The position numbers and the translations under genes were made by a program. From the IMG/VR virus record IMGVR_UViG_2740892431_000015: a DNA stretch of 9,944 nt; one strand, 5' to 3'. Within the stretch, counting starts at the first letter, position 1. The number at the start of each line of letters is the position of its first letter. The notes under the pieces were generated by a model that had not been told where the DNA came from, ran no database searches, and saw only the letters and a list, made by a program, of their open reading frames with translations. Of this stretch, positions 1 through 9,623 are shown one piece after another. This stretch comes from a virus. Taxonomy: Duplodnaviria; Heunggongvirae; Uroviricota; Caudoviricetes.

Positions 1-27
1 CTAAATCAGTAAGTTGGCAGCATCACC
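1..27 (-). mobile_element. IS1 terminal inverted repeat (IRL-type end), 27-bp fragment; element body lies outside the window to the left
   Basis: Bases 1-27 CTAAATCAGTAAGTTGGCAGCATCACC are the exact reverse complement of the IS1 left terminus GGTGATGCTGCCAACTTACTGATTTAG as I remember it; perfect 27-bp inverted match with 9918-9944. Confidence 0.85.
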
Positions 28-36
28 GGGTGATTA

Positions 37-2142
37 ATGGCTAAAGCATGGAAAGATGTTATCGCCTCTCCACAGTATCAGGCGTTAGCACCAGAACAAA
101 AAGCGCAGGCTCAGGAGCAATACTTCAATGAAGTCGTGGCCCCGCAAGCCGGAGAAAGTGTAGCGCAGGCTAAGCAGGCTTTTTATGCTGCCTATCCACT
201 ACCATCAACGAATGAAATAGACCGATCCCAATCAGCAACTCAAAATATTCAACATACATCATCTGATAATTCTCTTGCGTCAGGGTATGCAAAGTTAGCT
301 ACTCAGCAAAGAGAGGGGCTTGAGCGTTCAGCAGAACAGGGAGCCAGTCTTGGGGCTGCGATGCGCGATGCTATAACAGGCGAAAGCCGAATGACTCCAG
401 AGATGGAGAGACTGCAAAATGTCGACCTTGCCCCAGAGTTAACCTCACTCAGCATGGGTGCTCTAAAAGCTCGATGGTCTCAACTTTTCGGCTCTGACGC
501 ATCTCAGGAAAAGATTCTTCAGAGCATGGGAGCGAAATTAAGGCAGGATGAGAAGGGTAACACTATCGTTTCCCTGCCATCCGGTGATTATGCTCTGAAC
601 AAGCCGGGTTTATCGCCGCAAGACGTGGCATCGTTTCTGGCTAATGCGCTGGCGTTTACACCAGCGGGCAGGGCTGGAACGGTGCTTGGTGCCATAGGAA
701 AATCAGCAGCTACAGATTTAGCACTACAGGGAGCCACCAGCCTTGCTGGTGGAGAAGATATTGATCCGTTACAAACGGTAATTTCTGCTGGCATTGGTGG
801 TATTGGTAAGGGGCTGGAAAATACAGCGAGTGCGGTTTCGAGGGCTGTTCGTGGTGATATGTCGCCTGAAGCAAAGGCTGCTGTCAACTTTGCATCGGAA
901 AGAAATCTGCCGTTAATGACCAGTGACATGCTGAAAGATAAAACCTTTATGCAGAGTCAGGCTCAGACATTAGGCGAAAGAGTTCCTTTTTTTGGAACCG
1001 GTAAGAATCGGCTGAATCAACAACAAGCACGAGAAAATTTAGTCAGAACATTTAGCGATGGTCTGGGTGGCATTTCTGATAAACAGCTTTATGAATCTGC
1101 GACTAAAGGGCAACAAAAATTCATTGAGGCAGCAGGAAAGCGATATAACCGCATAATTGACGCTATGGGGGATACCCCTGTCGATCTCTCAAACACGGTA
1201 AAAGCTATCGACAATCAGATTGCCGTGTTAAGCCGCCCGGGCAAATCTCAGGATAGAGCCGCGGTAAAAGTCTTGCAGCAATTTAAAGACGATATCACCA
1301 GCGGACCAAATGACCTGCGTCTGGCGAGGGAAAACAGAACCGATCTTCGAAAGCGATTTATGGCGTCATCTGACACTGTTGATAAAGATACGCTCCAGAA
1401 AGCCAGCGATATTATCTACAAGGCATATACGGCGGATATGAAAAAAGCCGTAGCCAAAAATCTTGGAGCAGACGAAGCCATTAATATGGCAAGGGTTGAT
1501 CGGTCATGGTCTAAATTCAATGACATGATGGGAAGAACGCGCGTTCAAAAGGCAATAGCCAGCGGTAAGGCCACGCCTGAGGATGTAACAAAACTCGTTT
1601 TTAGCCAAAGCCCATCAGAACGTTCTCAGCTTTACAGGCTTCTGGATGACAATGGTAGGCAAAACGCACGAGCAGCCATAGTTCAGAATGCTGTAGATAA
1701 GGCGACTGATCCGTCTGGAAATATCAGTGTTGAGAAGTTTATTAATGCGTTACACCGGAACAGGAAGCAATCAGCAACTTTCTTTAAAGGCGTACATGGA
1801 AAGGAACTGGACGGCGTTATTAAATACCTCAACGATACAAGACACGCGGCAAAAGCGAACGTTCAAAACTTAAATGGTCAGCAGCTTTATGGATTGTTAG
1901 TTGGTGGTGGCATCATAAACGCAGCAGTATTAGCGGGGATGCTAAAAACGGCTGCGTTTGTTGTTCCTGCTGCTGGTGCCGTAGGCGGAGCAGCGAAGGC
2001 ATACGAAAGCCCTGTTATACGAAATGCCTTGTTACGTCTGGCAAATACGCCAAAAGGTAGCACAGCATATGACAGAGCGATCAGTACGGTCACACAATCG
2101 CTCACCAGAGTCGCACAGGCATCACAAAAAGAAGCTCAATAA
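37..2142 (+). CDS. Large hypothetical protein (701 aa), Ala/Gln/Lys-rich and probably helical, with internal Gly-rich segment and C-terminal glycine-zipper-like hydrophobic hairpin; candidate membrane-active protein (bacteriocin-like toxin, or phage tape-measure/ejection protein)
   Basis: Long uninterrupted ORF in typical-GC DNA; ATG at 37 preceded by GGGTGA; in-frame TGA at 31-33 means the frame cannot extend upstream. Hydrophobic Gly/Ala-rich stretch LLVGGGIINAAVLAGMLKTAAFVVPAAGAVGGAAKAY near residues 623-662, followed by a ~40-aa polar tail. Antisense ORFs inside it are shadows. Confidence 0.8.
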   Translation: MAKAWKDVIASPQYQALAPEQKAQAQEQYFNEVVAPQAGESVAQAKQAFYAAYPLPSTNEIDRSQSATQNIQHTSSDNSLASGYAKLATQQREGLERSAEQGASLGAAMRDAITGESRMTPEMERLQNVDLAPELTSLSMGALKARWSQLFGSDASQEKILQSMGAKLRQDEKGNTIVSLPSGDYALNKPGLSPQDVASFLANALAFTPAGRAGTVLGAIGKSAATDLALQGATSLAGGEDIDPLQTVISAGIGGIGKGLENTASAVSRAVRGDMSPEAKAAVNFASERNLPLMTSDMLKDKTFMQSQAQTLGERVPFFGTGKNRLNQQQARENLVRTFSDGLGGISDKQLYESATKGQQKFIEAAGKRYNRIIDAMGDTPVDLSNTVKAIDNQIAVLSRPGKSQDRAAVKVLQQFKDDITSGPNDLRLARENRTDLRKRFMASSDTVDKDTLQKASDIIYKAYTADMKKAVAKNLGADEAINMARVDRSWSKFNDMMGRTRVQKAIASGKATPEDVTKLVFSQSPSERSQLYRLLDDNGRQNARAAIVQNAVDKATDPSGNISVEKFINALHRNRKQSATFFKGVHGKELDGVIKYLNDTRHAAKANVQNLNGQQLYGLLVGGGIINAAVLAGMLKTAAFVVPAAGAVGGAAKAYESPVIRNALLRLANTPKGSTAYDRAISTVTQSLTRVAQASQKEAQ

Positions 2143-2161: not shown

Positions 2162-2776
2162 TTAGATATCTCTGCTGTCTCCATTAGGAAATAAAAGATA
2201 ATATGGATTTGCCTTTCTTGCTCTCCTTGCTTCACCCGGATACCTGTTAGTCAGTAGCTTGCATAATGAGCAGAGAACAACACTCAAGAAAATTCCGAAT
2301 GAGAAGATCAATATCTCACCAAAAATCAATGGCGATATTAAATTTTCAGGATTTAATGATAAGTCAATGTTAAAAACATATTGAGCAATACCAGTAAGTA
2401 TCAATAATATAATCCCTATGGAATACATTGCTGTTTCCCAAACATCAGACAGTCTATTTTTGAATTGTTCGCTGGAGTAGTAGTTTGTTATAAAGTCAGA
2501 AAAATCACTCTCATATGCATCATCTTTAGGTGATGTTAGAAATCCTCTGTCTCTCCATACCTTCTCCCAATTAGTCGATTCTTTTTTTAAGGAAAAATAA
2601 ATATGTATTCCCAAAAGGATAGCCAAAATTGGTGTTAGCTCTAAAAAATAGAATGTTATGGAATAAATAATACTGCCATGTTCAAACTCATCTGGGACTA
2701 TCATGTATGCACAAAAATAAATTGAAAAGTACACCATGCAGATAGTTAGCAATTCTTTAGTATCTTTTCTGCTCAC
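2162..2776 (-). CDS. Low-GC integral membrane protein, about four predicted TM helices (204 aa); candidate immunity or exclusion protein
   Basis: GTG start at 2776 with AGGGGG Shine-Dalgarno about 6 nt upstream on the minus strand; four hydrophobic stretches (LLTICMVYFSIYFCAYMIV, IIYSITFYFLELTPILAILLGIHIYF, AMYSIGIILLILTGIAQYVF, ISPLIFGEILIFSFGIFLSVVLCSLCKLL); strongly AT-rich compared with the flanking genes; convergent with the 701-aa ORF, stops 19 bp apart. Confidence 0.7.
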   Translation of the reverse strand: MSRKDTKELLTICMVYFSIYFCAYMIVPDEFEHGSIIYSITFYFLELTPILAILLGIHIYFSLKKESTNWEKVWRDRGFLTSPKDDAYESDFSDFITNYYSSEQFKNRLSDVWETAMYSIGIILLILTGIAQYVFNIDLSLNPENLISPLIFGEILIFSFGIFLSVVLCSLCKLLTNRYPGEARRARKANPYYLLFPNGDSRDI

Positions 2777-2885
2777 ACCAACCCCCTTTAGCGTTGTTTA
2801 GAATGGCAATCATCATATATCCAAGACATGGCATTTGGTACATAGCTTGGGTCGGGATTTCAAGTCCGCTCCCAGTTGATGGGGC

Positions 2886-3040
2886 CGTTACAGTACGCGC
2901 ATATCCGCTTTATGTGAAACAGGAAGATTTTTCTGATATCACTGCCACAGCAAAACACCAATTTCGTGACCAGTACGCGCGCGAGGGGTATCAGTTGCAA
3001 AATTTTTTGCAACTGCGTCCGACCAGTACGCACACGATGG
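2886..3040 (+). repeat. Three degenerate same-orientation copies of a CAGTACGCGCGCGA-type (CG)n-palindrome element
   Basis: cagtacgcgcatatcc at 2891-2906, gaccagtacgcgcgcgagggg at 2968-2988, gaccagtacgcacacgatgg at 3021-3040, in a ~520-bp stretch with no convincing gene. Confidence 0.6.
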
Positions 3041-3230
3041 CGGGGGATACCATAAAACTGTTCTCTACATGAGACAGAGTGGTGGTGATGTGTTGATTAT
3101 CGGCGTATATGCGCACAGGACGCGCTATGACGATGTTTTATGCGGGTACACCAATCACATGTATCTGGTGTGATAAATCGCGTTACATGACCTCTCATGT
3201 TGTGCTGGTGGTTATCACGACTTTCTGAAT

Positions 3231-3274
3231 CTGGCCTTTGCCTGATATTTTGCGACAAGTACGCGCGCGTAGCA
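3231..3274 (+). repeat. Copy of a ~45-bp repeat ending in GACAAGTACGCGCGCGTAGCA (contains perfect palindrome TACGCGCGCGTA)
   Basis: ctggcctttgcctgatattttgcgacaagtacgcgcgcgtagca; about 80 percent identical to the copy at 4608-4652; sits just beyond the 3' end of the minus-strand 73-aa gene. Confidence 0.65.
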
Positions 3275-3297
3275 TCGACAGCATACACATTGGATAT

Positions 3298-3519
3298 TCA
3301 TTTTGTGACCAATGCGATAAGTAGCGGGATAAGAATTGATAAAATCAACAGGCCGATGATCCACTTTTGATTTTCACTGGCCTTATCTCTATTTTCATCA
3401 ATCTTATCAATAATTCGACGCTCCAATCCGTGCATATCACCGCGAATGGCAATCATCTCATTGCGAACATCAGGGAAGTGGTTGGCTTGATGTTCAATGT
3501 GTGGCGTTCTGCCTTTCAT
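3298..3519 (-). CDS. Small tail-anchored membrane protein (73 aa): ~50-aa charged N-terminal region plus one C-terminal TM helix
   Basis: ATG at 3519 with GAGGA Shine-Dalgarno 6 nt upstream on the minus strand; C-terminal WIIGLLILSILIPLLIALV hydrophobic helix; 79 bp downstream of the RHH gene on the same strand, so probably co-transcribed. Confidence 0.55.
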   Translation of the reverse strand: MKGRTPHIEHQANHFPDVRNEMIAIRGDMHGLERRIIDKIDENRDKASENQKWIIGLLILSILIPLLIALVTK

Positions 3520-3598
3520 ATCTGATCCTCACCTATCGTCACTACCTGCTGGTGTATAAAGGTATTGGCCCAAGCAACTTTCCAATGGGCACTCATGT

Positions 3599-4054
3599 TT
3601 ATACGCTGACCTTACAATCAATCACTGCTTTTAGCTTTTCAGCATTGCTTCCCTGACGCTTCCACGCGCTGTAAATATCTTTATCCCACGCTTTACCAGC
3701 TTTTGTTTGATAGCCTGCTTCATTGATCCGTTCAGCTATCACACGCCCATTATCAAATCCCTGTTGGATGGTATCGGCAATGATCTTTATAACTGCCGTT
3801 TCGTTATATGGTTTTGGTGGGATGTTCGGCTTTCCGGCAATAAGCGACGCAGCGGCTTTTTCCATGCGCTCCACCAGCCCAAGCATTCGTGAATCAATAG
3901 ACTTTTCCGGCTGCCCCAGCTTCATGCGAATCGCATCAACAAGCCAGGAGGTTTTATCTCCTCCAGAAGCGAGAACAGACCGATTAAACTCATCCTGCAA
4001 TTCAGATGGGATGCGGAACGCGACCAGATTAGATTTGCTCATTGCAAAGACCAT
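3599..4054 (-). CDS. Ribbon-helix-helix (CopG/Arc/MetJ-like) DNA-binding protein with ~100-aa C-terminal extension (151 aa)
   Basis: N-terminus LVAFRIPSELQDEFNRSVLASGGDKTSWLVDAIRMKL fits the RHH pattern of beta-strand, helix, G-x-T/S turn, helix (my pattern recognition, not a search). First gene of a two-gene minus-strand unit; palindromic operator and iterons immediately upstream. Start may be the second ATG at 4042. Confidence 0.65.
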   Translation of the reverse strand: MVFAMSKSNLVAFRIPSELQDEFNRSVLASGGDKTSWLVDAIRMKLGQPEKSIDSRMLGLVERMEKAAASLIAGKPNIPPKPYNETAVIKIIADTIQQGFDNGRVIAERINEAGYQTKAGKAWDKDIYSAWKRQGSNAEKLKAVIDCKVSV

Positions 4055-4086
4055 ATCAGTGAGTAATATCCATACAGTATACCACT

Positions 4087-4103
4087 GTATAACACTGTTA
4101 TAC
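4087..4103. promoter_or_regulatory. Perfect 17-bp palindrome GTATAACACTGTTATAC, candidate operator in the promoter region of the minus-strand RHH operon
   Basis: Read directly: arms gtataaca / tgttatac around central C at 4095; lies 33-49 bp upstream of the minus-strand start codon at 4054. Confidence 0.4.
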
Positions 4104-4149
4104 GCTCAAATATCAGCCAGAAAATAACGGACCAATCACAAATCTATCG

Positions 4150-4268
4150 CTGTGTTGTTGGTTCAGAGCTGGGCTGTGTTGGTTCAAAATGAGTTGATGT
4201 TGGTTCAATATTTCAGAAAAAACACAATAAAAACAACAATCTTTACAAATTGAACCAACTGAACCAAC
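4150..4268. promoter_or_regulatory. Iteron-like array: three direct TGTTGGTTCA repeats at exact 21-bp spacing plus two tandem inverted TGAACCAAC copies, between divergent genes
   Basis: TGTTGGTTCA at 4156-4165, 4177-4186, 4198-4207; TGAACCAAC at 4251-4259 and 4260-4268; TATAAT at 4281-4286 just before the ATG at 4300. Confidence 0.55.
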
Positions 4269-4299: not shown

Positions 4300-4581
4300 A
4301 TGATAAGGGACAGGAAAGCTGAAGAGCTGGAGTCAAAAGGGCTATACCGGAGAGCTGCCGCACGATGGATGGAAGTCATGCTGTTATGCACCGAGGACGA
4401 TGATCGGGAATGGATAAAGCGCCGCCGTGAAACGTGTCTGGAGAACGTGAAGCGCCCGCCCGTGAAGGTTGAGGAATTTGGCGACCTGCATAAAGCTGTT
4501 ACCGAAACGCAACACCGCATGGGGATAGCGCAACCGAACGGTAACGCCTTCCGGTTAAATGGCGGCAAGAGGCAAAGGTAG
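4300..4581 (+). CDS. PerC-family-like transcriptional activator (93 aa)
   Basis: GAGAGG Shine-Dalgarno at 4289-4294; N-terminus MIRDRKAEELESKGLYRRAAARW resembles the PerC/Pch small-activator signature as I remember it; size fits (~90 aa). Family call is from memory, not a search. Confidence 0.65.
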   Translation: MIRDRKAEELESKGLYRRAAARWMEVMLLCTEDDDREWIKRRRETCLENVKRPPVKVEEFGDLHKAVTETQHRMGIAQPNGNAFRLNGGKRQR

Positions 4582-4878: not shown

Positions 4879-5064
4879 ATGACACCACGCGAAATAGCCT
4901 TATTGACCATCGCCAAACTTGAGCACGGAGGCCACCAGCTTACACAGGCAGATCAACGGGAGATAGAACGATCAGTTAATGCCGATATAGCCCGGCGCGA
5001 CAGGTTCCGCGAAATGATGCGAGCACCTGCCTACCAGTGGAAGAAGCCAGCGCCGCGCAGGTAG
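4879..5064 (+). CDS. Small hypothetical protein (61 aa)
   Basis: ATG at 4879 with AGAGGG Shine-Dalgarno 8 nt upstream; same strand and immediately upstream of the pRiA4b-ORF3-like gene; no recognisable family. Confidence 0.4.
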   Translation: MTPREIALLTIAKLEHGGHQLTQADQREIERSVNADIARRDRFREMMRAPAYQWKKPAPRR

Positions 5065-6092: not shown

Positions 6093-6124
6093 CTTATTGT
6101 GGGATAGCACTATCATACAATAAG
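6093..6124. promoter_or_regulatory. Compound imperfect palindrome (CTTATTGT ... GATAG-CA-CTATC ... ACAATAAG), candidate operator upstream of the 119-aa minus-strand gene
   Basis: Read directly: 8-bp outer arms at 6093-6100 and 6117-6124 with a nested GATAG/CTATC inner palindrome; 26 of 32 positions symmetric. Confidence 0.4.
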
Positions 6125-6901
6125 TGGGTTAAAGGGAGAGCGTTACCGCCTGATATGCTGTATGAATAACAACCAAATTTCAGGGGCGGAAAAAGATATG
6201 GGGGTACTTTTGGGGGTATCTATAAAAAATGAACAATAAAAAAGGCAACAAAAACAAAGCTTATCGCCTATGTGTATTGTTCCTATTATCGCACAATCAA
6301 GAAAATCAATAACTTAGCTTAACTTCTCTAAGAAATTGTATCTTCTGTTATCACTTACAAACGCCTATACGTTGTTATGGGCTTTGGTAGTGTAACACGT
6401 ATGGGCGAGTAGTTCCCAGGCTCAACCTCGTAACAAGTTCCTTTGAAGCTGGAAGACGTGCCACCGTCTCTAAACCTTCTACCAAAACTCTTAGCAAGAT
6501 GTTCCACACCTGGCGCGGTGTCCAATGATGCTACACGTCGTGAGACGTTGCAGAGGATAAACAGGCTAAATGATGGGAAGAGTTTTAAGTGCAATAGTGG
6601 ATCAAAGCCCACCTCTTCAAAACCTAACTTGATCGGGAAAGAATCAAGCTCTAGCACGGTTTCGTCCACCGGAGTACAACGGGTGCCTGATAAGAGAAGA
6701 ACTGCTAAGACTTCATAGCTTTTGTGAAAAAGCCCTTTTAGTGGATACGCCTACGGCGCTTATTTTTTGGGGTAGCCCATCAAAGGCGCTTTATGGCTCC
6801 TATTGTCTTGAAAATGTATCTTTACTTGTATTGTGTTTTATGCGTAGTCTCCCTGTGTAGTATGTAACTTGTTAATTTTCATATGAATACAGAGGCACAC
6901 G

Positions 6902-7060
6902 ATGAAAAACATTGCAGCTATCAAACGTAATAACCGCAAGATTCACGCTCGTAAGTTCCTGTCTACGCCAGAAGGAAAAGCCTGGCTAGAGCGTAAACAG
7001 AGAGAGAACGAAGAAAGAAAACTCCTTAATGAGTTGAAATGGCTTAGAGAGGATTTCTGA
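6902..7060 (+). CDS. Small basic protein (52 aa), below the ORF-track threshold: MKNIAAIKRNNRKIHARKFLSTPEGKAWLERKQRENEERKLLNELKWLREDF
   Basis: ATG at 6902 with AGAGG Shine-Dalgarno at 6891-6895 (6-nt spacer); TGA at 7058-7060; sits alone in AT-rich DNA that is otherwise noncoding. Confidence 0.45.
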   Translation: MKNIAAIKRNNRKIHARKFLSTPEGKAWLERKQRENEERKLLNELKWLREDF

Positions 7061-7224
7061 AAATCTCCAGAACGCAACAGGACGCATTCTAACGCTATTT
7101 TCATTGCTTGGTATAGGGATGTATAGGTGATGTGTGTTTAATGCGTCTGTGCGCTTGTTTTGTGCCTTATTTTGCATTTTCATAATGCAGAAGAGAACAC
7201 GGAAAACCTTAAAATTAATTATTG

Positions 7225-7262
7225 GGGTATTTAAGGGTATTTTCAGGTGATTTAAGGGTATT
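7225..7262 (+). repeat. GGGTATT(T/A) direct repeats, including two 13-bp copies ATTTAAGGGTATT spaced 20 bp apart
   Basis: gggtattt at 7225-7232 and 7235-7242, gggtatta at 7256-7263; related GGGGGTA pair at 6199-6220. Confidence 0.5.
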
Positions 7263-7330
7263 AAACTTGATTTAATTGATTAAAATATAAACAGATAGTT
7301 GTGTATCTTATTGATTTATAAGGTTATTTT

Positions 7331-7390
7331 TAAATAAAGGTAAATAAAAAATAAATAGCCATAAATAGCTATAAATACATCTAAATACCT
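7331..7390 (+). repeat. Six tandem 10-bp units of (A/T)TAAATA-type, 10-bp helical phasing (probable intrinsically curved DNA)
   Basis: taaataaagg, taaataaaaa, ataaatagcc, ataaatagct, ataaatacat, ctaaatacct occupying consecutive 10-bp blocks 7331-7390. Confidence 0.55.
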
Positions 7391-7872
7391 ATATCCCTTC
7401 CCTTATGGCTAGATTGCGAGAGGTGCTTAACGCGATTTTCAGCGCCCCCCGATCTGGAAAATCCAGAATCCCCAAATATCAGCAAGGAATTTTCTTGCGT
7501 AATCAACATCGTTTTTACCTATTAAATCATTACACAGAAAGCCTTTCTGTAATGTCTCTCACTAAACTTTCACTAAACACGAGAATGATCGGTTTTATGT
7601 CGGATCAGATGCTAGAAACAGCACCACGTCTCACAAGGACTGTAAGCGATGAAACCAGTGTTTATGCGGGTGCAGGTCAAAATATAGGCCAAAATCAATT
7701 TAACATAATAAACGTAATATGCACTAAGGAACACATAGAACGCCTTGAGTTGATGTATCAGGGGAAAAAAGTGATGGATTTTTTACGTAGGAGCACGAGA
7801 GGGCTTCTGTTGACTTTTGTATGCTATGAAACATAATTAAAGGTTTTTTTGTTTTTATTGTGTGATGTAGTG

Positions 7873-7900
7873 GATTACACAGGGGAATAGATTAAATGGT
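7873..7900 (+). repeat. Iteron copy GATTACACAGGGGAATAGATTAAATGG (ATTACACAGG family)
   Basis: Shares the ATTACACAGGG-AATA...GATTA-TGG pattern with the tandem copies at 8224-8287. Confidence 0.45.
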
Positions 7901-8223
7901 GTTCTGTTTATACAGGTTTATTTGTTAGATCAACAATTTGGCATTTCTAAACAGATGTTTGAACGTTGCCAAATGTCTTGACAACACAAGAAAAGGGCTT
8001 GCTATGCCACGCATTACACGAAATAAGGCTGTAAAAACAAAATAAATTTTAAAATTTGCACAAACGAGAAAACTCGTTAAGAAACAAGCAGAACAATTTT
8101 TAGCCAACAATTTCTGATGGTGCTCTGTAGGCCGCACTACACAAGGATTTGCGAAAGTGATGTAAAAGTGAAGAAAGTAAGAATTGCACTTTTAAGCTAC
8201 TTTTCATTGAATTTTTAGTATGG

Positions 8224-8287
8224 AATTACACAGGAATAAGTTAGGGATATTCTATGATTTACACAGGGAATATAGGGGATTATGGCA
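8224..8287 (+). repeat. Tandem pair of ~32-bp imperfect direct repeats (ATTACACAGG family iterons)
   Basis: aattacacaggaataagttagggatattctatg (8224-8256) and atttacacagggaatataggggattatggcac (8256-8287); further single cores at 8013-8020, 8136-8146, 8303-8311 and 9405-9415. Confidence 0.55.
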
Positions 8288-8459
8288 CACACATAGAAAG
8301 GCATTACACAGAGTGAGTGCTATGTGATGATTGGTAGTAACGGTAGGTCATAGTGAGCTAGGGGGTAGGTCACTGTGAACTACAATAAGACTATTAATAA
8401 AACTATATTAGATTATTAATTAGATCATAATAATAATATTCTTTATATCTATATATATG

Positions 8460-8880
8460 ATCTTTTGCCTTCCGGCGTTAGCTTCACTCTCTGGCAAGCA
8501 GCCTTACTCCGCTACCTTTCGGGCTTCGTGGCTGGCCCGTTCCGCTCACACCGAAAGCAAAGCGTTACTTTCTTCGTGTAACTTCGTTGGCGGTAACGCC
8601 CACGAAGAAATCTATTGCGCTGTGCGCAGTAAGAGTAATCACCTAACCAATCATACTGATTGCTTATGTGTTAACTCTCTCTAACTCTTAATTACCCTCC
8701 TACATTTAATAACTCTGTTATTCTCTGTAGTTGTGTAATTACTCGAAGAGAGAGCGGCTAAAGCTCAATTACACTCTGCTTTCCTCGTGTAATTTCACTA
8801 AGCCTCAATACAATTTCACTTCCTACATTCTGTAGTCGTGTAATTGTTTTCGGTGGAAAAGCCAGAGGCGACACCGAAAG
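8460..8880 (+). other. GC-enriched structured island inside AT-rich DNA; candidate structured ncRNA or single-strand initiation/origin hairpins
   Basis: Hairpin 8516-8557 (ctttcgg / ccgaaag); hairpin 8570-8609 (9-bp stem ttcttcgtg / cacgaagaa enclosing GGCG-GTAA-CGCC, a GNRA tetraloop); hairpin 8848-8879 (tttcggtg / caccgaaa); 10-mer ACACCGAAAG repeated at 8548-8557 and 8871-8880. The 75-aa ORF here has no ribosome-binding site. Confidence 0.3.
8721..8845 (+). repeat. Two direct repeats TTCT(CT)GTAGT(T/C)GTGTAATT carrying the iteron core in reverse orientation
   Basis: 8721-8740 and 8828-8845; further reverse-orientation cores CGTGTAA(C/T) at 8575-8582 and 8785-8793. Confidence 0.45.
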
Positions 8881-8888
8881 AGAATTCT

Positions 8889-8950
8889 GATCTTATTAAT
8901 CTTATCTATCTTAGTTAATCTTCTTACTTATCTTACTTACTTTATCTACT
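8889..8950 (+). repeat. Degenerate 9-bp tandem repeat (ATCTTAnnn) in a G-depleted pyrimidine-rich tract
   Basis: TCTTA at 8890, 8899, 8908, 8921, 8930 (mostly exact 9-bp spacing); only one G between 8889 and 8965 on the top strand. Confidence 0.5.
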
Positions 8951-9481
8951 TTATTATTAATAATAGCTTTATAAGCTCTCTGTGTAGCTCTCTGACGCAA
9001 GAAACAGCATTCAGGAAGGGAATCACCTTAGAAAAGGTGTTCTTTGCGTCATAATGTGTTTTATGAAGGATTCAGAGGTGTTTCATAACAGGAATGTATA
9101 GAGAATACTTTAGGTAATTAAAAATAAGGGGTCTAAATGCTTCTCTAACAGCATTAAGCAGGGTAGGGAATGGAAACGCATTGCCTACATATAATAAACT
9201 CACTACAGGGCTTTACAGGGCGTTTTATAAAGTGACTCTCTGTTTTATATCTACAATCACCTTTTCATATACCTAACAAATACAAAATAAGCCCCTTAAA
9301 TAAGCCTCTGGCGAGCTAAACAGACATTACATAAGAGAATGTATTGCTTTTATCAAAACTTCGTTAGAACGCGTTTTAGAGCGTTTTAGCGGATAATGAA
9401 GAATAGCACTACACAGAAGAGCACGAATTGCTAAGACAAATTATAACATGCTGAAAAAGATCGATTTTTTCGAAAAGGGTA

Positions 9482-9510
9482 TTGACAAATGTTTCTTTAT
9501 ATGTAATAAT
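9482..9510 (+). promoter_or_regulatory. Sigma70-type promoter candidate with extended -10 (TTGACA, 17-bp spacer, TGtAATAAT)
   Basis: Consensus -35 TTGACA at 9482-9487; TG at 9503-9504 and AATAAT at 9505-9510; would give a ~105-nt leader to the ATG at 9624. Confidence 0.45.
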
Positions 9511-9623
9511 AGGTATTAGAGGGACAGAAAAACATTCTTCTCTAAATAATCAAAATCAATGCACTTTGAAGCCGTCAGGCTTGCAAGGTGTTTTATTTCT
9601 TTTAACTGAATAAGGAGTTTTTT

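What the first reader, a model, noticed from the sequence alone, without database searches (positions are those of the whole stretch)
3298..4127. Two-gene unit: RHH DNA-binding protein plus tail-anchored 73-aa membrane peptide, with a perfect 17-bp palindromic operator
An RHH-type regulator with an unusual ~100-aa C-terminal extension is followed 79 bp later by a small protein with a charged N-terminal domain and one C-terminal TM helix, each with a Shine-Dalgarno. Upstream lies the perfect palindrome GTATAACACTGTTATAC. A regulator plus a small membrane peptide is reminiscent of toxin-antitoxin, abortive-infection or exclusion modules, but the order and sizes fit no classic family I can name.
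Basis: partly seen in the sequence, partly recalled or inferred. Interest (0 to 1): 0.6.

Follow-up and report, generated by a model that had tools for sequence, protein, structure and literature searches.

The report
Satellite repressor gene with truncated membrane-protein cargo
This stretch belongs to a phage-parasitic island of E. coli: a self-regulating DNA-binding protein gene with its conserved operator, followed by a separately acquired, shortened phage membrane-protein gene in a slot where sister islands carry anti-phage genes. It is not a toxin-antitoxin pair.

Summary
The ORFs, the 79-nt spacing and the palindrome are all real. The window is the right arm of an EcCIMP1-type phage-inducible chromosomal island, a satellite of P22-like phages; this copy is cut down by IS1.

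**Regulator.** The true start is probably ATG 4042, giving 147 aa. It has an Arc/Mnt-like ribbon-helix-helix N-domain, a central helix and a near-invariant recombinase-like winged-HTH C-domain. It is a core gene of this island family across Enterobacterales (355 protein clusters).

**Operator.** Two 7-bp half-sites lie 10 bp apart (GTATAAC-N3-GTTATAC), directly upstream of an extended -10 box and 40-46 nt (one locus 53) from the start codon in 47 of 47 loci. A second clade has direct repeats (GTCTTAC-N3-GTCTTAC) together with changed beta-strand residues (L6/A8 to S6/T8). I infer autorepression.

**73-aa gene.**
- It is a real gene under purifying selection (dN/dS 0.19-0.31).
- It is an independently mobile, N-terminally truncated XhlA-like tail-anchored protein.
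- In phages it lies downstream of mnt or cI, paired with a Zn-ribbon protein.
- Only about half of E. coli genomes with the regulator carry it; sister islands carry an Abi_2 gene there.

The layout mirrors P22 mnt-orf59a-sieA. A lysogeny-type exclusion role is plausible but untested. The toxin-antitoxin reading is not supported.

The parts
4087..4103 (-). Operator: two 7-bp half-sites (4097-4103 and 4087-4093) 10 bp apart, with a variable 3-nt centre
   Evidence: Perfect palindrome. Half-sites are invariant and N3 variable in 27 class-A loci. They are replaced by direct repeats GTCTTAC-N3-GTCTTAC in 20 class-B loci whose beta-strand differs. No second copy elsewhere in the island stretches held.
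4076..4084 (-). Putative extended -10 promoter element TGgTATACT (TG 4084-4083, hexamer 4081-4076), 5 nt downstream of the operator
   Evidence: Read from the sequence. A TAnAnT box occupies the same position in relatives, and TGn precedes it in roughly three quarters of them (TGATATAAT, TGGTAAAAT). The consensus scan requiring a -35 box found nothing. Promoter activity is inferred.
3599..4042 (-). Regulator gene, 147 aa (an alternative upstream ATG at 4054 gives 151 aa)
   Evidence: Family alignment starts at MSKS. 355 protein clusters across Enterobacterales. RefSeq annotates 444 nt.
3908..4042 (-). N-terminal Arc/Mnt-like ribbon-helix-helix domain (residues 1-45 of the 147-aa protein)
   Evidence: hhalign against Mnt is in register over strand plus both helices, E 5e-4; the Mnt sequence was verified against 1mnt. 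Pfam RHH_1 E 0.11 for a relative. PHROG 30270 E 3e-4. Beta-strand residues covary with operator type.
3620..3811 (-). C-terminal recombinase-like winged-HTH domain, nearly invariant across the family
3520..3598 (-). 79-nt spacer. Its 3' part (3520-3557) is a decayed remnant of the phage gene's Gly-rich linker coding region, with an in-frame TGA at 3531-3529, and now supplies the SD AGGTGAGGA (3534-3526)
   Evidence: Nucleotide similarity to the P22-like prophage cassette starts at 3557. In-frame remnant YTPAGSDDR*GSD against phage HTPTGSGNGGGSD. No terminator-like site.
3298..3519 (-). 73-aa XhlA-like tail-anchored membrane protein gene (coiled coil plus C-terminal TM helix), an N-terminally truncated version of a 100-117-aa phage protein
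   Evidence: PHROG 6324 at 5e-11 and 'holin' PHROG 689 at 3e-3. Relatives hit Pfam XhlA at 8e-7 to 1e-2, below the cutoff. AF2 gives a single helix 14-72. dN/dS 0.19-0.31, Fisher p 8e-5 to 0.03, in-frame 7-codon indel.
2162..2776 (-). Context: SieA homologue (204 aa), same orientation, 521 nt downstream of the 73-aa gene; possible third gene of the arm
   Evidence: BLASTP against P22 SieA 8e-8, RYPGEA motif. Motif and SieA types described in PMC10883804. PHROG SieA-like 4e-4.
4157..4268 (.). Adjacent, not part of the regulator's own system: five GTTGGTTCA/TGAACCAAC iterons (4157, 4178, 4199 and, inverted, 4251, 4260), one of two origin-like clusters of the island
   Evidence: A mirrored second cluster lies 3' of the primase gene in complete islands. 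The iteron sequence tracks the primase lineage.

Best explanation
The interval is the repressor arm of an immI-like region carried by an EcCIMP1-family phage-inducible chromosomal island, a satellite of P22-like phages.

Proposed mechanism:
1. A promoter of the extended -10 type (TGgTATACT, 4084-4076) drives leftward transcription of a 147-aa protein.
2. The protein's Arc/Mnt-type RHH N-domain binds two 7-bp half-sites one helical turn apart (4087-4103).
3. These half-sites cover the -35/spacer region, so the protein represses its own promoter. This step is inferred from position, conservation and covariation.
4. The transcript probably continues into the 73-aa gene 79 nt downstream, where no terminator is seen, and perhaps on to the sieA homologue.

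The 73-aa gene is not a cognate partner of the regulator. It is an independently mobile, N-terminally truncated XhlA-like membrane protein with a cytoplasmic coiled coil and a C-terminal anchor. It was captured from a phage cassette that normally sits downstream of the lysogeny repressors Mnt or CI. It occupies a cargo slot that holds Abi_2 or other genes in sister islands.

The most likely role of this cargo is a function expressed while the island is quiescent and acting at the inner membrane against incoming phage (superinfection exclusion or abortive infection), alongside SieA. That role is inferred, not shown.

The partner of the invariant recombinase-like wHTH C-domain is unknown.
For: **Element identity**
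- 99.8% identical to an E. coli chromosome at tRNA-Thr. Relatives carry int, alpA-type HTH, AntA/B, Ash, a TOPRIM-DUF927 primase, P22-type gp7/gp20/gp16 and PerC.
- This is the published EcCIMP1 architecture, induced and packaged by the P22-like phage Kapi1 (PMC11773190).

**Regulator**
- 355 clusters at 58-82% identity in Enterobacterales, with no Pfam or PADLOC hit and no tblastn hit in 50,697 phage records.
- It is convergent with the island's primase homologue wherever that gene is within reach, which was 23 of the 49 species loci.
- RHH assignment: in-register hhalign to Mnt, plus weak RHH_1 and PHROG hits.

**Operator**
- 27 of 27 loci with beta-strand L6/A8 have GTATAAC-N3-GTTATAC.
- 20 of 20 loci with S6/T8 have GTCTTAC-N3-GTCTTAC.
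- The spacing to the start codon is nearly fixed (40-46 nt; one locus 53), the centre varies, and a TAnAnT box follows 5 nt downstream, preceded by TGn in roughly three quarters of the loci.
- The site is unique within each locus.

**Cargo nature of the 73-aa gene**
- Found only in E. coli: 24 clusters; 169 genomes against 361 with the regulator.
- Replaced by Abi_2 in sister E. coli islands, and by Abi_2, DprA-like or membrane proteins in other genera.
- In MP1's EcCIMP1 the whole block 3279-4155 is swapped for alpA_1 plus another gene.
- Homologues lie in P22-like prophages as mnt > 123 aa > 77 aa, facing gene 16. In a lambdoid contig they lie as cI > 149 aa > 104 aa. They also lie in phages SPN3UB and ST101-KPC2phi6.1.
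- Nucleotide similarity to the phage cassette covers only 3300-3557.

**Layout parallel to P22**
- Gene 16 | sieA < orf59a < mnt; the window's 204-aa protein is a SieA homologue.
Against: - No binding, transcription or phenotype data exist for either protein. Autorepression rests on operator position and comparative genomics.
- The RHH assignment is below every curated threshold, and AF2 as a monomer did not model the strand.
- The operator/beta-strand covariation amounts to essentially one evolutionary split between two clades.
- The 73-aa ORF has lost its N-domain and its Zn-ribbon partner. An in-frame stop lies just upstream, and frameshifted alleles exist, so it could be on its way to decay.
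- The MP1 island in which superinfection immunity was measured lacks this very module, so that phenotype cannot be assigned to it.
- Co-transcription of the two genes is unproven.
Confidence: 0.65

Rival explanations
1. Dedicated toxin-antitoxin or abortive-infection pair: the RHH protein is the antitoxin and transcriptional autoregulator, and the 73-aa membrane peptide is its cognate toxin.
For: The gene order (RHH first, small membrane protein second), the single autoregulatory operator and the tight 79-nt spacing resemble type II TA operons. XhlA and 'holin' profile similarities suggest a membrane-damaging potential.
Against: - The two genes do not co-occur obligatorily: 361 against 169 E. 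coli genomes, and no small gene in any other genus among 49 species loci.
- The small-gene family occurs without this regulator in phages.
- The regulator's C-domain is a DNA-binding-type wHTH, not a known toxin-neutralising tail.
- The small gene entered by recombination that ends 38 nt upstream of its ATG.
Confidence: 0.08
2. The 73-aa ORF is a non-functional leftover of a truncated phage gene, and only the regulator matters.
For: - The N-terminal ~40 residues and the Zn-ribbon partner are missing.
- An in-frame TGA sits 4 codons upstream, inside a recognisable remnant of the Gly-rich linker.
- Several frameshifted or fused alleles are in the protein collection.
- The gene is absent from about half of the E. 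coli loci that carry the regulator.
Against: - Purifying selection among island-borne alleles that all share the truncation: pN/pS 0.08/0.34, Fisher p 8e-5, with two further pairs at p 0.02-0.03.
- The length variants differ by an in-frame 7-codon (heptad) indel.
- A strong SD lies at the right distance.
- The ORF matches over its full length in all 169 E. coli genomes that carry it.
Confidence: 0.15
3. The RHH protein is a replication, copy-number or origin accessory factor (like CopG, omega or ParG) acting on the neighbouring iterons.
For: In E. coli, Salmonella, Serratia, Pantoea, Erwinia, Rosenbergiella and others, an iteron cluster lies 76-350 nt upstream of the gene. RHH proteins of plasmids do bind arrays of direct and inverted repeats (established knowledge).
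Against: - The iteron sequence changes with the primase lineage while the regulator's C-domain is invariant.
- Morganellaceae and most Klebsiella-group islands (L008, L012) have no iterons near the gene; in L006 and L013/L014 the nearest lie 570-1140 nt upstream.
- The only site that covaries with the RHH beta-strand is the promoter operator.
- No rep or par gene lies downstream.
Confidence: 0.08
4. The protein acts in trans on the helper phage or on island excision, as the positional equivalent of EcCIMP1 alpA_1, which supports helper excision.
For: In MP1 the same slot holds alpA_1, a small HTH protein that aids Kapi1 excision. The invariant recombinase-like wHTH suggests a second, conserved target.
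Against: No second operator was found in complete islands or in P22-like immI loci at up to 3 mismatches. Operator matches in viral contigs were either its own promoter or scattered chance hits. The two slot occupants share no homology.
Confidence: 0.1

Closest known systems
P22 immI left arm: mnt-orf59a-sieA, with Mnt (Arc/Mnt RHH repressor) and its 17-bp symmetric operator
   Same: - Same neighbourhood and orientation: convergent on ejection-protein gene 16, with an RHH gene, then a small ORF, then sieA.
- RHH N-domain aligns in register with Mnt.
- A 17-bp symmetric operator overlaps the promoter.
- Expression is expected in the quiescent (lysogenic) state.
   Different: - Sequence similarity to Mnt is marginal; no Pfam Arc hit.
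- Instead of Mnt's C-terminal tetramerisation coil there is an extra helix plus a recombinase-like wHTH domain.
- There is no divergent arc-ant operon (PerC instead; the antirepressor gene is at the other end of the island).
- The element is a satellite, not a phage.
- The operator sequence is unrelated.
XhlA family (Pfam PF10779; PBSX-type lysis-cassette proteins) / PHROG 689 'holin'
   Same: Same size and architecture: an N-terminal coiled coil and a single C-terminal TM helix. Relatives match almost the whole XhlA profile.
   Different: - All scores are below the Pfam cutoff, and the window protein itself gives no hit.
- It is not in a lysis cassette.
- In phages it is paired with a Zn-ribbon protein and placed behind lysogeny repressors.
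- The window copy is N-terminally truncated.
EcCIMP1 (Pick et al. 2025, PMC11773190), a PICI of E. coli MP1 mobilised by the P22-like phage Kapi1
   Same: Same island family, attachment site (tRNA-Thr) and gene set; flanks are 97-98% identical.
   Different: In EcCIMP1 the segment equivalent to window 3279-4155 is replaced by alpA_1 plus a small gene, so the published work does not cover this regulator or the 73-aa gene. The window copy is truncated by IS1.
Lysogeny-repressor-linked exclusion operons (lambda cI-rexA-rexB; P22 sieA)
   Same: Membrane-protein genes sit immediately downstream of, and co-oriented with, the maintenance repressor. Homologues of the 73-aa protein occupy exactly that position behind cI and mnt.
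   Different: No sequence relation to RexA/B. The exclusion or abortive function is untested here.
Type II toxin-antitoxin operons with RHH antitoxins
   Same: An autoregulated operon with the RHH gene first and a small second gene.
   Different: The pair does not co-occur obligatorily. The second gene is a mobile phage moron. The regulator's C-domain is a wHTH, not a toxin-binding tail.

Membership tests
Arc/Mnt/CopG ribbon-helix-helix superfamily | Curated profile match (Pfam RHH_1 or Arc) above threshold | tested here: not met
   No hit for the window protein. RHH_1 E 0.11, 12.9 bits against a cutoff of 20.5, for a class-B relative.
Arc/Mnt/CopG ribbon-helix-helix superfamily | N-terminal strand-helix-turn-helix pattern alignable with a solved member | tested here: inconclusive
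   hhalign against Mnt (1mnt) is in register over 40 columns, E 5e-4 but probability 30%. Against Arc, 29 columns and probability 13%. The AF2 monomer gives the two helices but not the strand.
Arc/Mnt/CopG ribbon-helix-helix superfamily | Operator made of short repeats about one helical turn apart, with specificity set by beta-strand side chains | tested here: met
   7-bp half-sites 10 bp apart. L6/A8 goes with GTTATAC (27/27) and S6/T8 with GTCTTAC (20/20). Binding itself was not tested.
Type II toxin-antitoxin system | The two genes co-occur as a unit across genomes | tested here: not met
   361 against 169 E. coli genomes. The small gene is absent next to the regulator in 49 species loci of other genera. 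The small gene occurs elsewhere without the regulator.
Type II toxin-antitoxin system | Second protein is toxic and is neutralised by the first | not testable with these tools
   Needs expression experiments.
XhlA (PF10779) | Pfam gathering score | tested here: not met
   Window protein: none. Relatives score 16-29.6 bits against 34.7.
XhlA (PF10779) | Small protein with a coiled coil plus a single C-terminal TM helix | tested here: met
   AF2 helix 14-72. Hydropathy peak 3.0 at residues 54-72. A heptad-sized indel separates alleles.
XhlA (PF10779) | Located in a lysis cassette with holin and endolysin | tested here: not met
   It lies behind a repressor gene and next to sieA/gene 16, or behind mnt or cI in phages.
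EcCIMP1-type PICI | Integrase at tRNA-Thr (or near dinD), alpA, TOPRIM-DUF927 primase, PerC and P22-type ejection genes in one ~20-kb island | tested here: met
   Complete relatives L001 and L061. The window's own copy keeps int but has lost the middle part to IS1.
EcCIMP1-type PICI | Helper-dependent excision and packaging | not testable with these tools
   Shown for MP1's EcCIMP1 only.
P22-type immI region | Order gene 16 | sieA < small ORF < RHH repressor | tested here: met
P22-type immI region | Divergent arc-ant operon controlled from the same operator region | tested here: not met
   The divergent gene is perC, 196 nt from the operator with the iterons in between. The AntA/B gene is at the other end of the island.
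SieA (context gene 2162-2776) | Polytopic inner-membrane protein with the cytoplasmic motif FxRYPxEAxxFNK | tested here: inconclusive
   BLASTP against P22 SieA 8e-8 over 108 residues. NRYPGEA is present but the FNK part is not.

The most novel reading that the evidence does not exclude
The RHH-wHTH protein is a satellite-specific switch. Its invariant recombinase-like C-domain would sense a conserved helper-phage or host component (or bind a second DNA target). Infection would then derepress a membrane-acting operon made of the XhlA-like protein plus SieA, which excludes or aborts competing phages. Separately, the XhlA-like / Zn-ribbon cassette behind mnt and cI would be an undescribed prophage exclusion system.
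Probability: 0.15. Interest if true: 0.65.

Novelty: new variant of a known kind. Interest (0 to 1): 0.42.

Why it matters
- **Gap in the published description.** No repressor-type regulator was found in what was read of the EcCIMP1 paper. This gene is a widely conserved, uncharacterised core gene of one such island family, with a clean predicted operator.
- **A specificity-swap experiment.** The two natural operator/beta-strand classes are inverted GTTATAC with L6/A8 and direct GTCTTAC with S6/T8. They offer a ready-made test of how RHH proteins read DNA and tolerate half-site orientation.
- **An anti-phage gene hotspot.** The slot behind the regulator is a cargo hotspot (Abi_2, DprA-like, membrane proteins, XhlA-like, SieA), so it is a useful place to look for anti-phage genes in satellites.
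- **Annotation.** The result removes a false toxin-antitoxin lead.

Tried and rejected
- **Iterons as targets of the C-domain:** rejected, because the iteron sequence follows the primase lineage while the C-domain is invariant.
- **Remote homologues of the N-domain:** a database search with the N-domain profile returned only fragments of the same family.
- **Alignment A2:** it contained one sequence I had completed from memory by mistake. It was discarded and replaced by A3, built from real sequences only.
- **PDB sequence searches:** nothing meaningful.
- **Protein searches against phage records:** no phage matches for the regulator, the 73-aa protein or the 204-aa protein at E up to 0.01-0.1. 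Only the 77-aa prophage allele found phage relatives.
- **Operator scans in viral contigs:** with the -10 tail, 49 of 56 hits were the regulator's own promoter and 7 were chance.
- **Other libraries:** Rfam nothing; PADLOC nothing.
- **LexA box in the promoter region:** considered and rejected by eye, because the half-sites are in the wrong orientation.
- **GCGTAC repeat clusters as a second target:** they are not universal among loci, so they are left unexplained.
Full report
**1. What is in the sequence**

All features lie on the minus strand.
- ORF 3599-4054 encodes 151 aa.
- After a 79-nt spacer, ORF 3298-3519 encodes 73 aa.
- Upstream of the first ORF lies the perfect palindrome GTATAACACTGTTATAC at 4087-4103.

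- The alignment of 44 relatives starts at MSKS. The real start is therefore most likely ATG 4042 (147 aa), as RefSeq annotates.
- Only the 73-aa gene has a convincing Shine-Dalgarno, AGGTGAGGA at 3534-3526.
- The conserved unit of the palindrome is 7+3+7, not 8+1+8.

A palindrome of this size is not rare by itself. The window holds 4, against 0.8 expected and up to 4 in simulations. Its significance comes from conservation (section 4).

**2. Where the window comes from**

The window is 99.8% identical to an E. coli chromosome, where it lies in an island at tRNA-Thr between proA and yagU. Near-identical copies sit next to dinD in other strains.

Complete copies carry these genes:
- a tyrosine integrase and an alpA-type HTH gene;
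- AntA/B and Ash;
- a TOPRIM-DUF927 primase;
- P22-type ejection genes (DUF2824, gp7, gp20, gp16);
- the genes of this window, then PerC and a PRiA4_ORF3 protein.

This is the EcCIMP1 type of phage-inducible chromosomal island. It was shown to be excised and packaged with the P22-like helper Kapi1 and to add to superinfection immunity (PMC11773190).

In the window's own genome, IS1 abuts gene 16, and the primase and alpA are gone, so this copy is a remnant.

In MP1's EcCIMP1 itself, window 3279-4155 (the 73-aa gene, the regulator gene and the operator) is replaced by about 1.2 kb carrying alpA_1 and a paralogue of the 61-aa gene. The break falls exactly at the edge of the iterons. The published work therefore does not cover this module.

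**3. The regulator**

The protein has no Pfam, NCBIfam or PADLOC assignment and no tblastn match in 50,697 phage records.

It has 355 protein clusters of about 143 aa, spread across many genera:
- Enterobacteriaceae: Escherichia, Salmonella, Klebsiella, Enterobacter;
- Serratia;
- Erwiniaceae: Pantoea, Erwinia, Tatumella, Rosenbergiella;
- Morganellaceae: Providencia, Morganella, Proteus, Photorhabdus, Xenorhabdus.

Wherever the island's primase homologue was within reach (23 of the 49 species loci), the regulator gene is convergent with it. In the Salmonella, Klebsiella and Serratia islands examined it sits at the island's end.

*N-domain.*
- It aligns in register with P22 Mnt over the strand and both helices (hhalign E 5e-4, probability 30%). 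The Mnt sequence was checked against 1mnt.
- RHH_1 scores E 0.11 for a relative, and a PHROG of unknown function scores 3e-4.
- All of these are sub-threshold.
- The AF2 monomer gives only the two helices with low confidence, as expected for an obligate dimer fold.

*C-domain.*
- Residues about 82-145 are modelled with pLDDT about 90 as a small helical HTH-like bundle.
- Pfam Recombinase and HTH_62 ('recombinase-like HTH') score E about 0.06.
- An exhaustive search with this domain finds proteins built of several Recombinase/HTH_62 or wHTH repeats.
- I therefore call it a recombinase-like winged HTH. It is almost invariant across the family.

**4. The operator**

In 47 loci from different genera, a pair of 7-bp elements 10 bp apart lies 40-46 nt before the start codon (one three-repeat locus, L017, at 53 nt to the first pair). 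It is followed 5 nt later by a TAnAnT box, and TGn precedes that box in roughly three quarters of the loci (TGGTATACT, TGATATAAT, TGGTAAAAT). This is an extended -10 layout.

There are two classes:

| Class | Loci | Element pair | Beta-strand | Positions 6 and 8 |
|---|---|---|---|---|
| A | 27 | GTATAAC-N3-GTTATAC, inverted | SNL[VI]AFR | L6 / A8 |
| B | 20 | GTCTTAC-N3-GTCTTAC, direct (three copies in one genome) | SLSVTFR | S6 / T8 |

- The association between element type and beta-strand is 27/27 and 20/20.
- By the Mnt alignment, positions 6 and 8 are the outward-facing strand residues.
- The central 3 nt vary freely: 9 different triplets in class A.
- The site is unique within every locus. 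This includes a 31-kb stretch that covers most of one island, from its alpA-type HTH gene to its right end (L001; its integrase end was not fetched), and P22-like immI loci.

In the window the site covers about -34 to -18 relative to the inferred start, so bound protein should exclude RNA polymerase. Autorepression is thus inferred from strong comparative evidence. The covariation amounts to one split between two clades, and nothing has been measured.

**5. The iterons next door belong to the primase**

Window 4157-4268 holds five GTTGGTTCA/TGAACCAAC repeats: three at 21-bp spacing and two inverted and adjacent.

- Complete islands have a mirrored second cluster directly 3' of the primase gene. 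From my own knowledge, this resembles the ori/crr arrangement of satellite P4.
- In islands with diverged primases the repeats 3' of the primase have other sequences (GGGATAACG, TGACACACT, GTTATCCCA, TGAACCGAC), and no cluster lies near the regulator. The regulator's C-domain nevertheless stays invariant.
- I therefore reject the idea that the C-domain reads these iterons. Its target remains unknown.

**6. The 73-aa gene**

*It is a real gene.*
- Alleles differ by an in-frame 7-codon (heptad) deletion and a 5-codon insertion.
- dN/dS is 0.19-0.31.
- Among island-borne alleles alone, synonymous changes are significantly enriched (Fisher p 8e-5, 0.02 and 0.03).

*Fold and family.*
- AF2 gives one long helix, residues 14-72, with a strongly hydrophobic last 20 residues.
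- The protein matches PHROG 6324 (unknown function, 5e-11) and weakly a 'holin' PHROG.
- Its relatives match nearly the whole Pfam XhlA profile at 8e-7 to 1e-2, below the cutoff.

*Distribution.*
- Next to the regulator, the family is confined to E. coli: 24 clusters, in 169 of 5,426 complete genomes against 361 with the regulator.
- Outside the islands, homologues sit in P22-like prophages in the immI region, as mnt > 123 aa > 77 aa > small membrane ORF, facing gene 16.
- In a lambdoid contig they sit as cI > 149 aa > 104 aa.
- They also sit in moron regions of Salmonella phage SPN3UB and a Klebsiella phage.

*The window copy is truncated.*
- In three of these phage settings, the preceding gene is a homologous ~120-aa protein with two CxxC pairs (phrog_4293).
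- In the P22-like prophage and in SPN3UB that gene's end overlaps or abuts the start of the XhlA-like gene. The phage protein is also longer (100-117 aa), with an N-terminal segment and a Gly-rich linker.
- Nucleotide similarity between the window and the prophage cassette covers only 3300-3557.
- The in-frame sequence upstream of the window's ATG reads YTPAGSDDR*GSD, against the phage's HTPTGSGNGGGSD.
- The window ORF is therefore an N-terminally truncated copy that restarts at an internal Met. Its Shine-Dalgarno is made of former glycine codons.

**7. The slot behind the regulator is a cargo hotspot**

| Where | What follows the regulator gene |
|---|---|
| Sister E. coli islands | A convergent Abi_2 gene replaces the 73-aa gene; the regulator and the sieA homologue stay |
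| Serratia, Raoultella | Abi_2 |
| Klebsiella | A DprA-like pair |
| Other genera | Polytopic or secreted proteins, a Fic-like gene, or only the conserved convergent 62-aa gene |

The window's next co-oriented gene (2162-2776, 204 aa) is a SieA homologue. BLASTP against P22 SieA gives 8e-8, and it carries the RYPGEA core of the published motif.

The overall order is: gene 16, then sieA-like, small ORF and RHH gene all pointing back toward gene 16. This matches P22's gene 16 | sieA < orf59a < mnt.

**8. Interpretation**

*Shown by the sequence and comparisons:*
- an autonomous regulator gene with a conserved operator that tracks the protein's specificity residues;
- a separately acquired, truncated XhlA-like membrane-protein gene under purifying selection;
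- an immI-like neighbourhood with SieA;
- a variable cargo slot.

*Inferred:*
- autorepression;
- co-transcription of the cargo gene with the regulator gene;
- a role for the cargo in exclusion or abortive infection.

*Not supported:* a cognate toxin-antitoxin pair, a partition or relaxosome function, and an origin-binding role.

*Rivals that remain open:* the 73-aa ORF could be a decaying remnant, or the regulator could have a trans target on the helper phage, like alpA_1 in the same slot of EcCIMP1.

**9. Novelty and score**

The island type, RHH autoregulators, SieA and XhlA-like proteins are all known kinds. New here are:
- the uncharacterised RHH-wHTH architecture as a core gene of this satellite family;
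- the natural inverted/direct operator switch coupled to strand residues;
- the XhlA-like/Zn-ribbon cassette placed behind lysogeny repressors.

I rate it a new variant of a known kind, of moderate interest.

Noticed in passing
window 4157-4268; L001 7901-8006; L061 18413-18505; L003 about 14387-14500: Five GTTGGTTCA/TGAACCAAC iterons lie between the regulator gene and perC. Complete islands have a mirrored second cluster just 3' of the TOPRIM-DUF927 primase gene, a P4 ori/crr-like arrangement. The iteron sequence changes with the primase lineage.
   Followed up: partly
window 2162-2776 (-): The 204-aa polytopic membrane protein is a SieA homologue (BLASTP against P22 SieA 8e-8, RYPGEA motif). 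The SieA paper reports that, in all cases it examined in detail, sieA genes lay in P22-like prophages. Here one sits in a satellite that also carries its own ejection-protein genes, which are the targets of SieA.
   Followed up: partly
window 1-2142; L002 15101-20142: The window's copy of the island is a remnant. IS1 sits directly upstream of gene 16, and everything between the integrase-proximal gene and gene 16 (alpA, primase, gp7, gp20) is missing.
   Followed up: partly
window 2777-3297 (about 2898, 2978, 3031, 3264): The 521-nt ORF-poor gap between the 73-aa gene and the sieA homologue has four copies of a GCGCGTACTGGT-like motif. Clusters of CTGCGTACC at 12-bp spacing occur near the regulator gene in other genera. 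They could be arm-type integrase sites or another protein's sites. Unexplained.
   Followed up: partly
window 4879-5064 (+): A 61-aa ORF ending in YQWKKPAPRR is a conserved island gene. In most genera it lies convergent immediately behind the regulator gene, and MP1's EcCIMP1 has a second copy next to alpA_1. Function unknown (PHROG 7271).
   Followed up: partly
L062 5517-6234; L073 4535-5204; L074 4562-5213: In phages the XhlA-like gene follows a homologous ~120-aa protein with two CxxC pairs (phrog_4293). In the P22-like prophage and SPN3UB the two genes overlap or abut. This recurrent two-gene cassette in immunity and moron regions has no described function.
   Followed up: partly
L017 about 8943-8969: Tatumella terrea has three tandem GTCTTAC repeats at 10-bp spacing instead of two, so the operator can grow by adding units.
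   Followed up: no
window 6100-9600: About 3.5 kb with almost no long ORFs and only two tiny annotated hypothetical genes in the matching RefSeq record. Not examined.
   Followed up: no
window 4300-4581 (+): The PerC-family gene is divergent from the regulator gene. The identical protein (WP_000617443.1) is annotated at the matching position of MP1's island, where the paper's EcCIMP1_025 represses rather than activates LEE1 in Citrobacter rodentium. The locus-tag-to-accession link is inferred from position.
   Followed up: no
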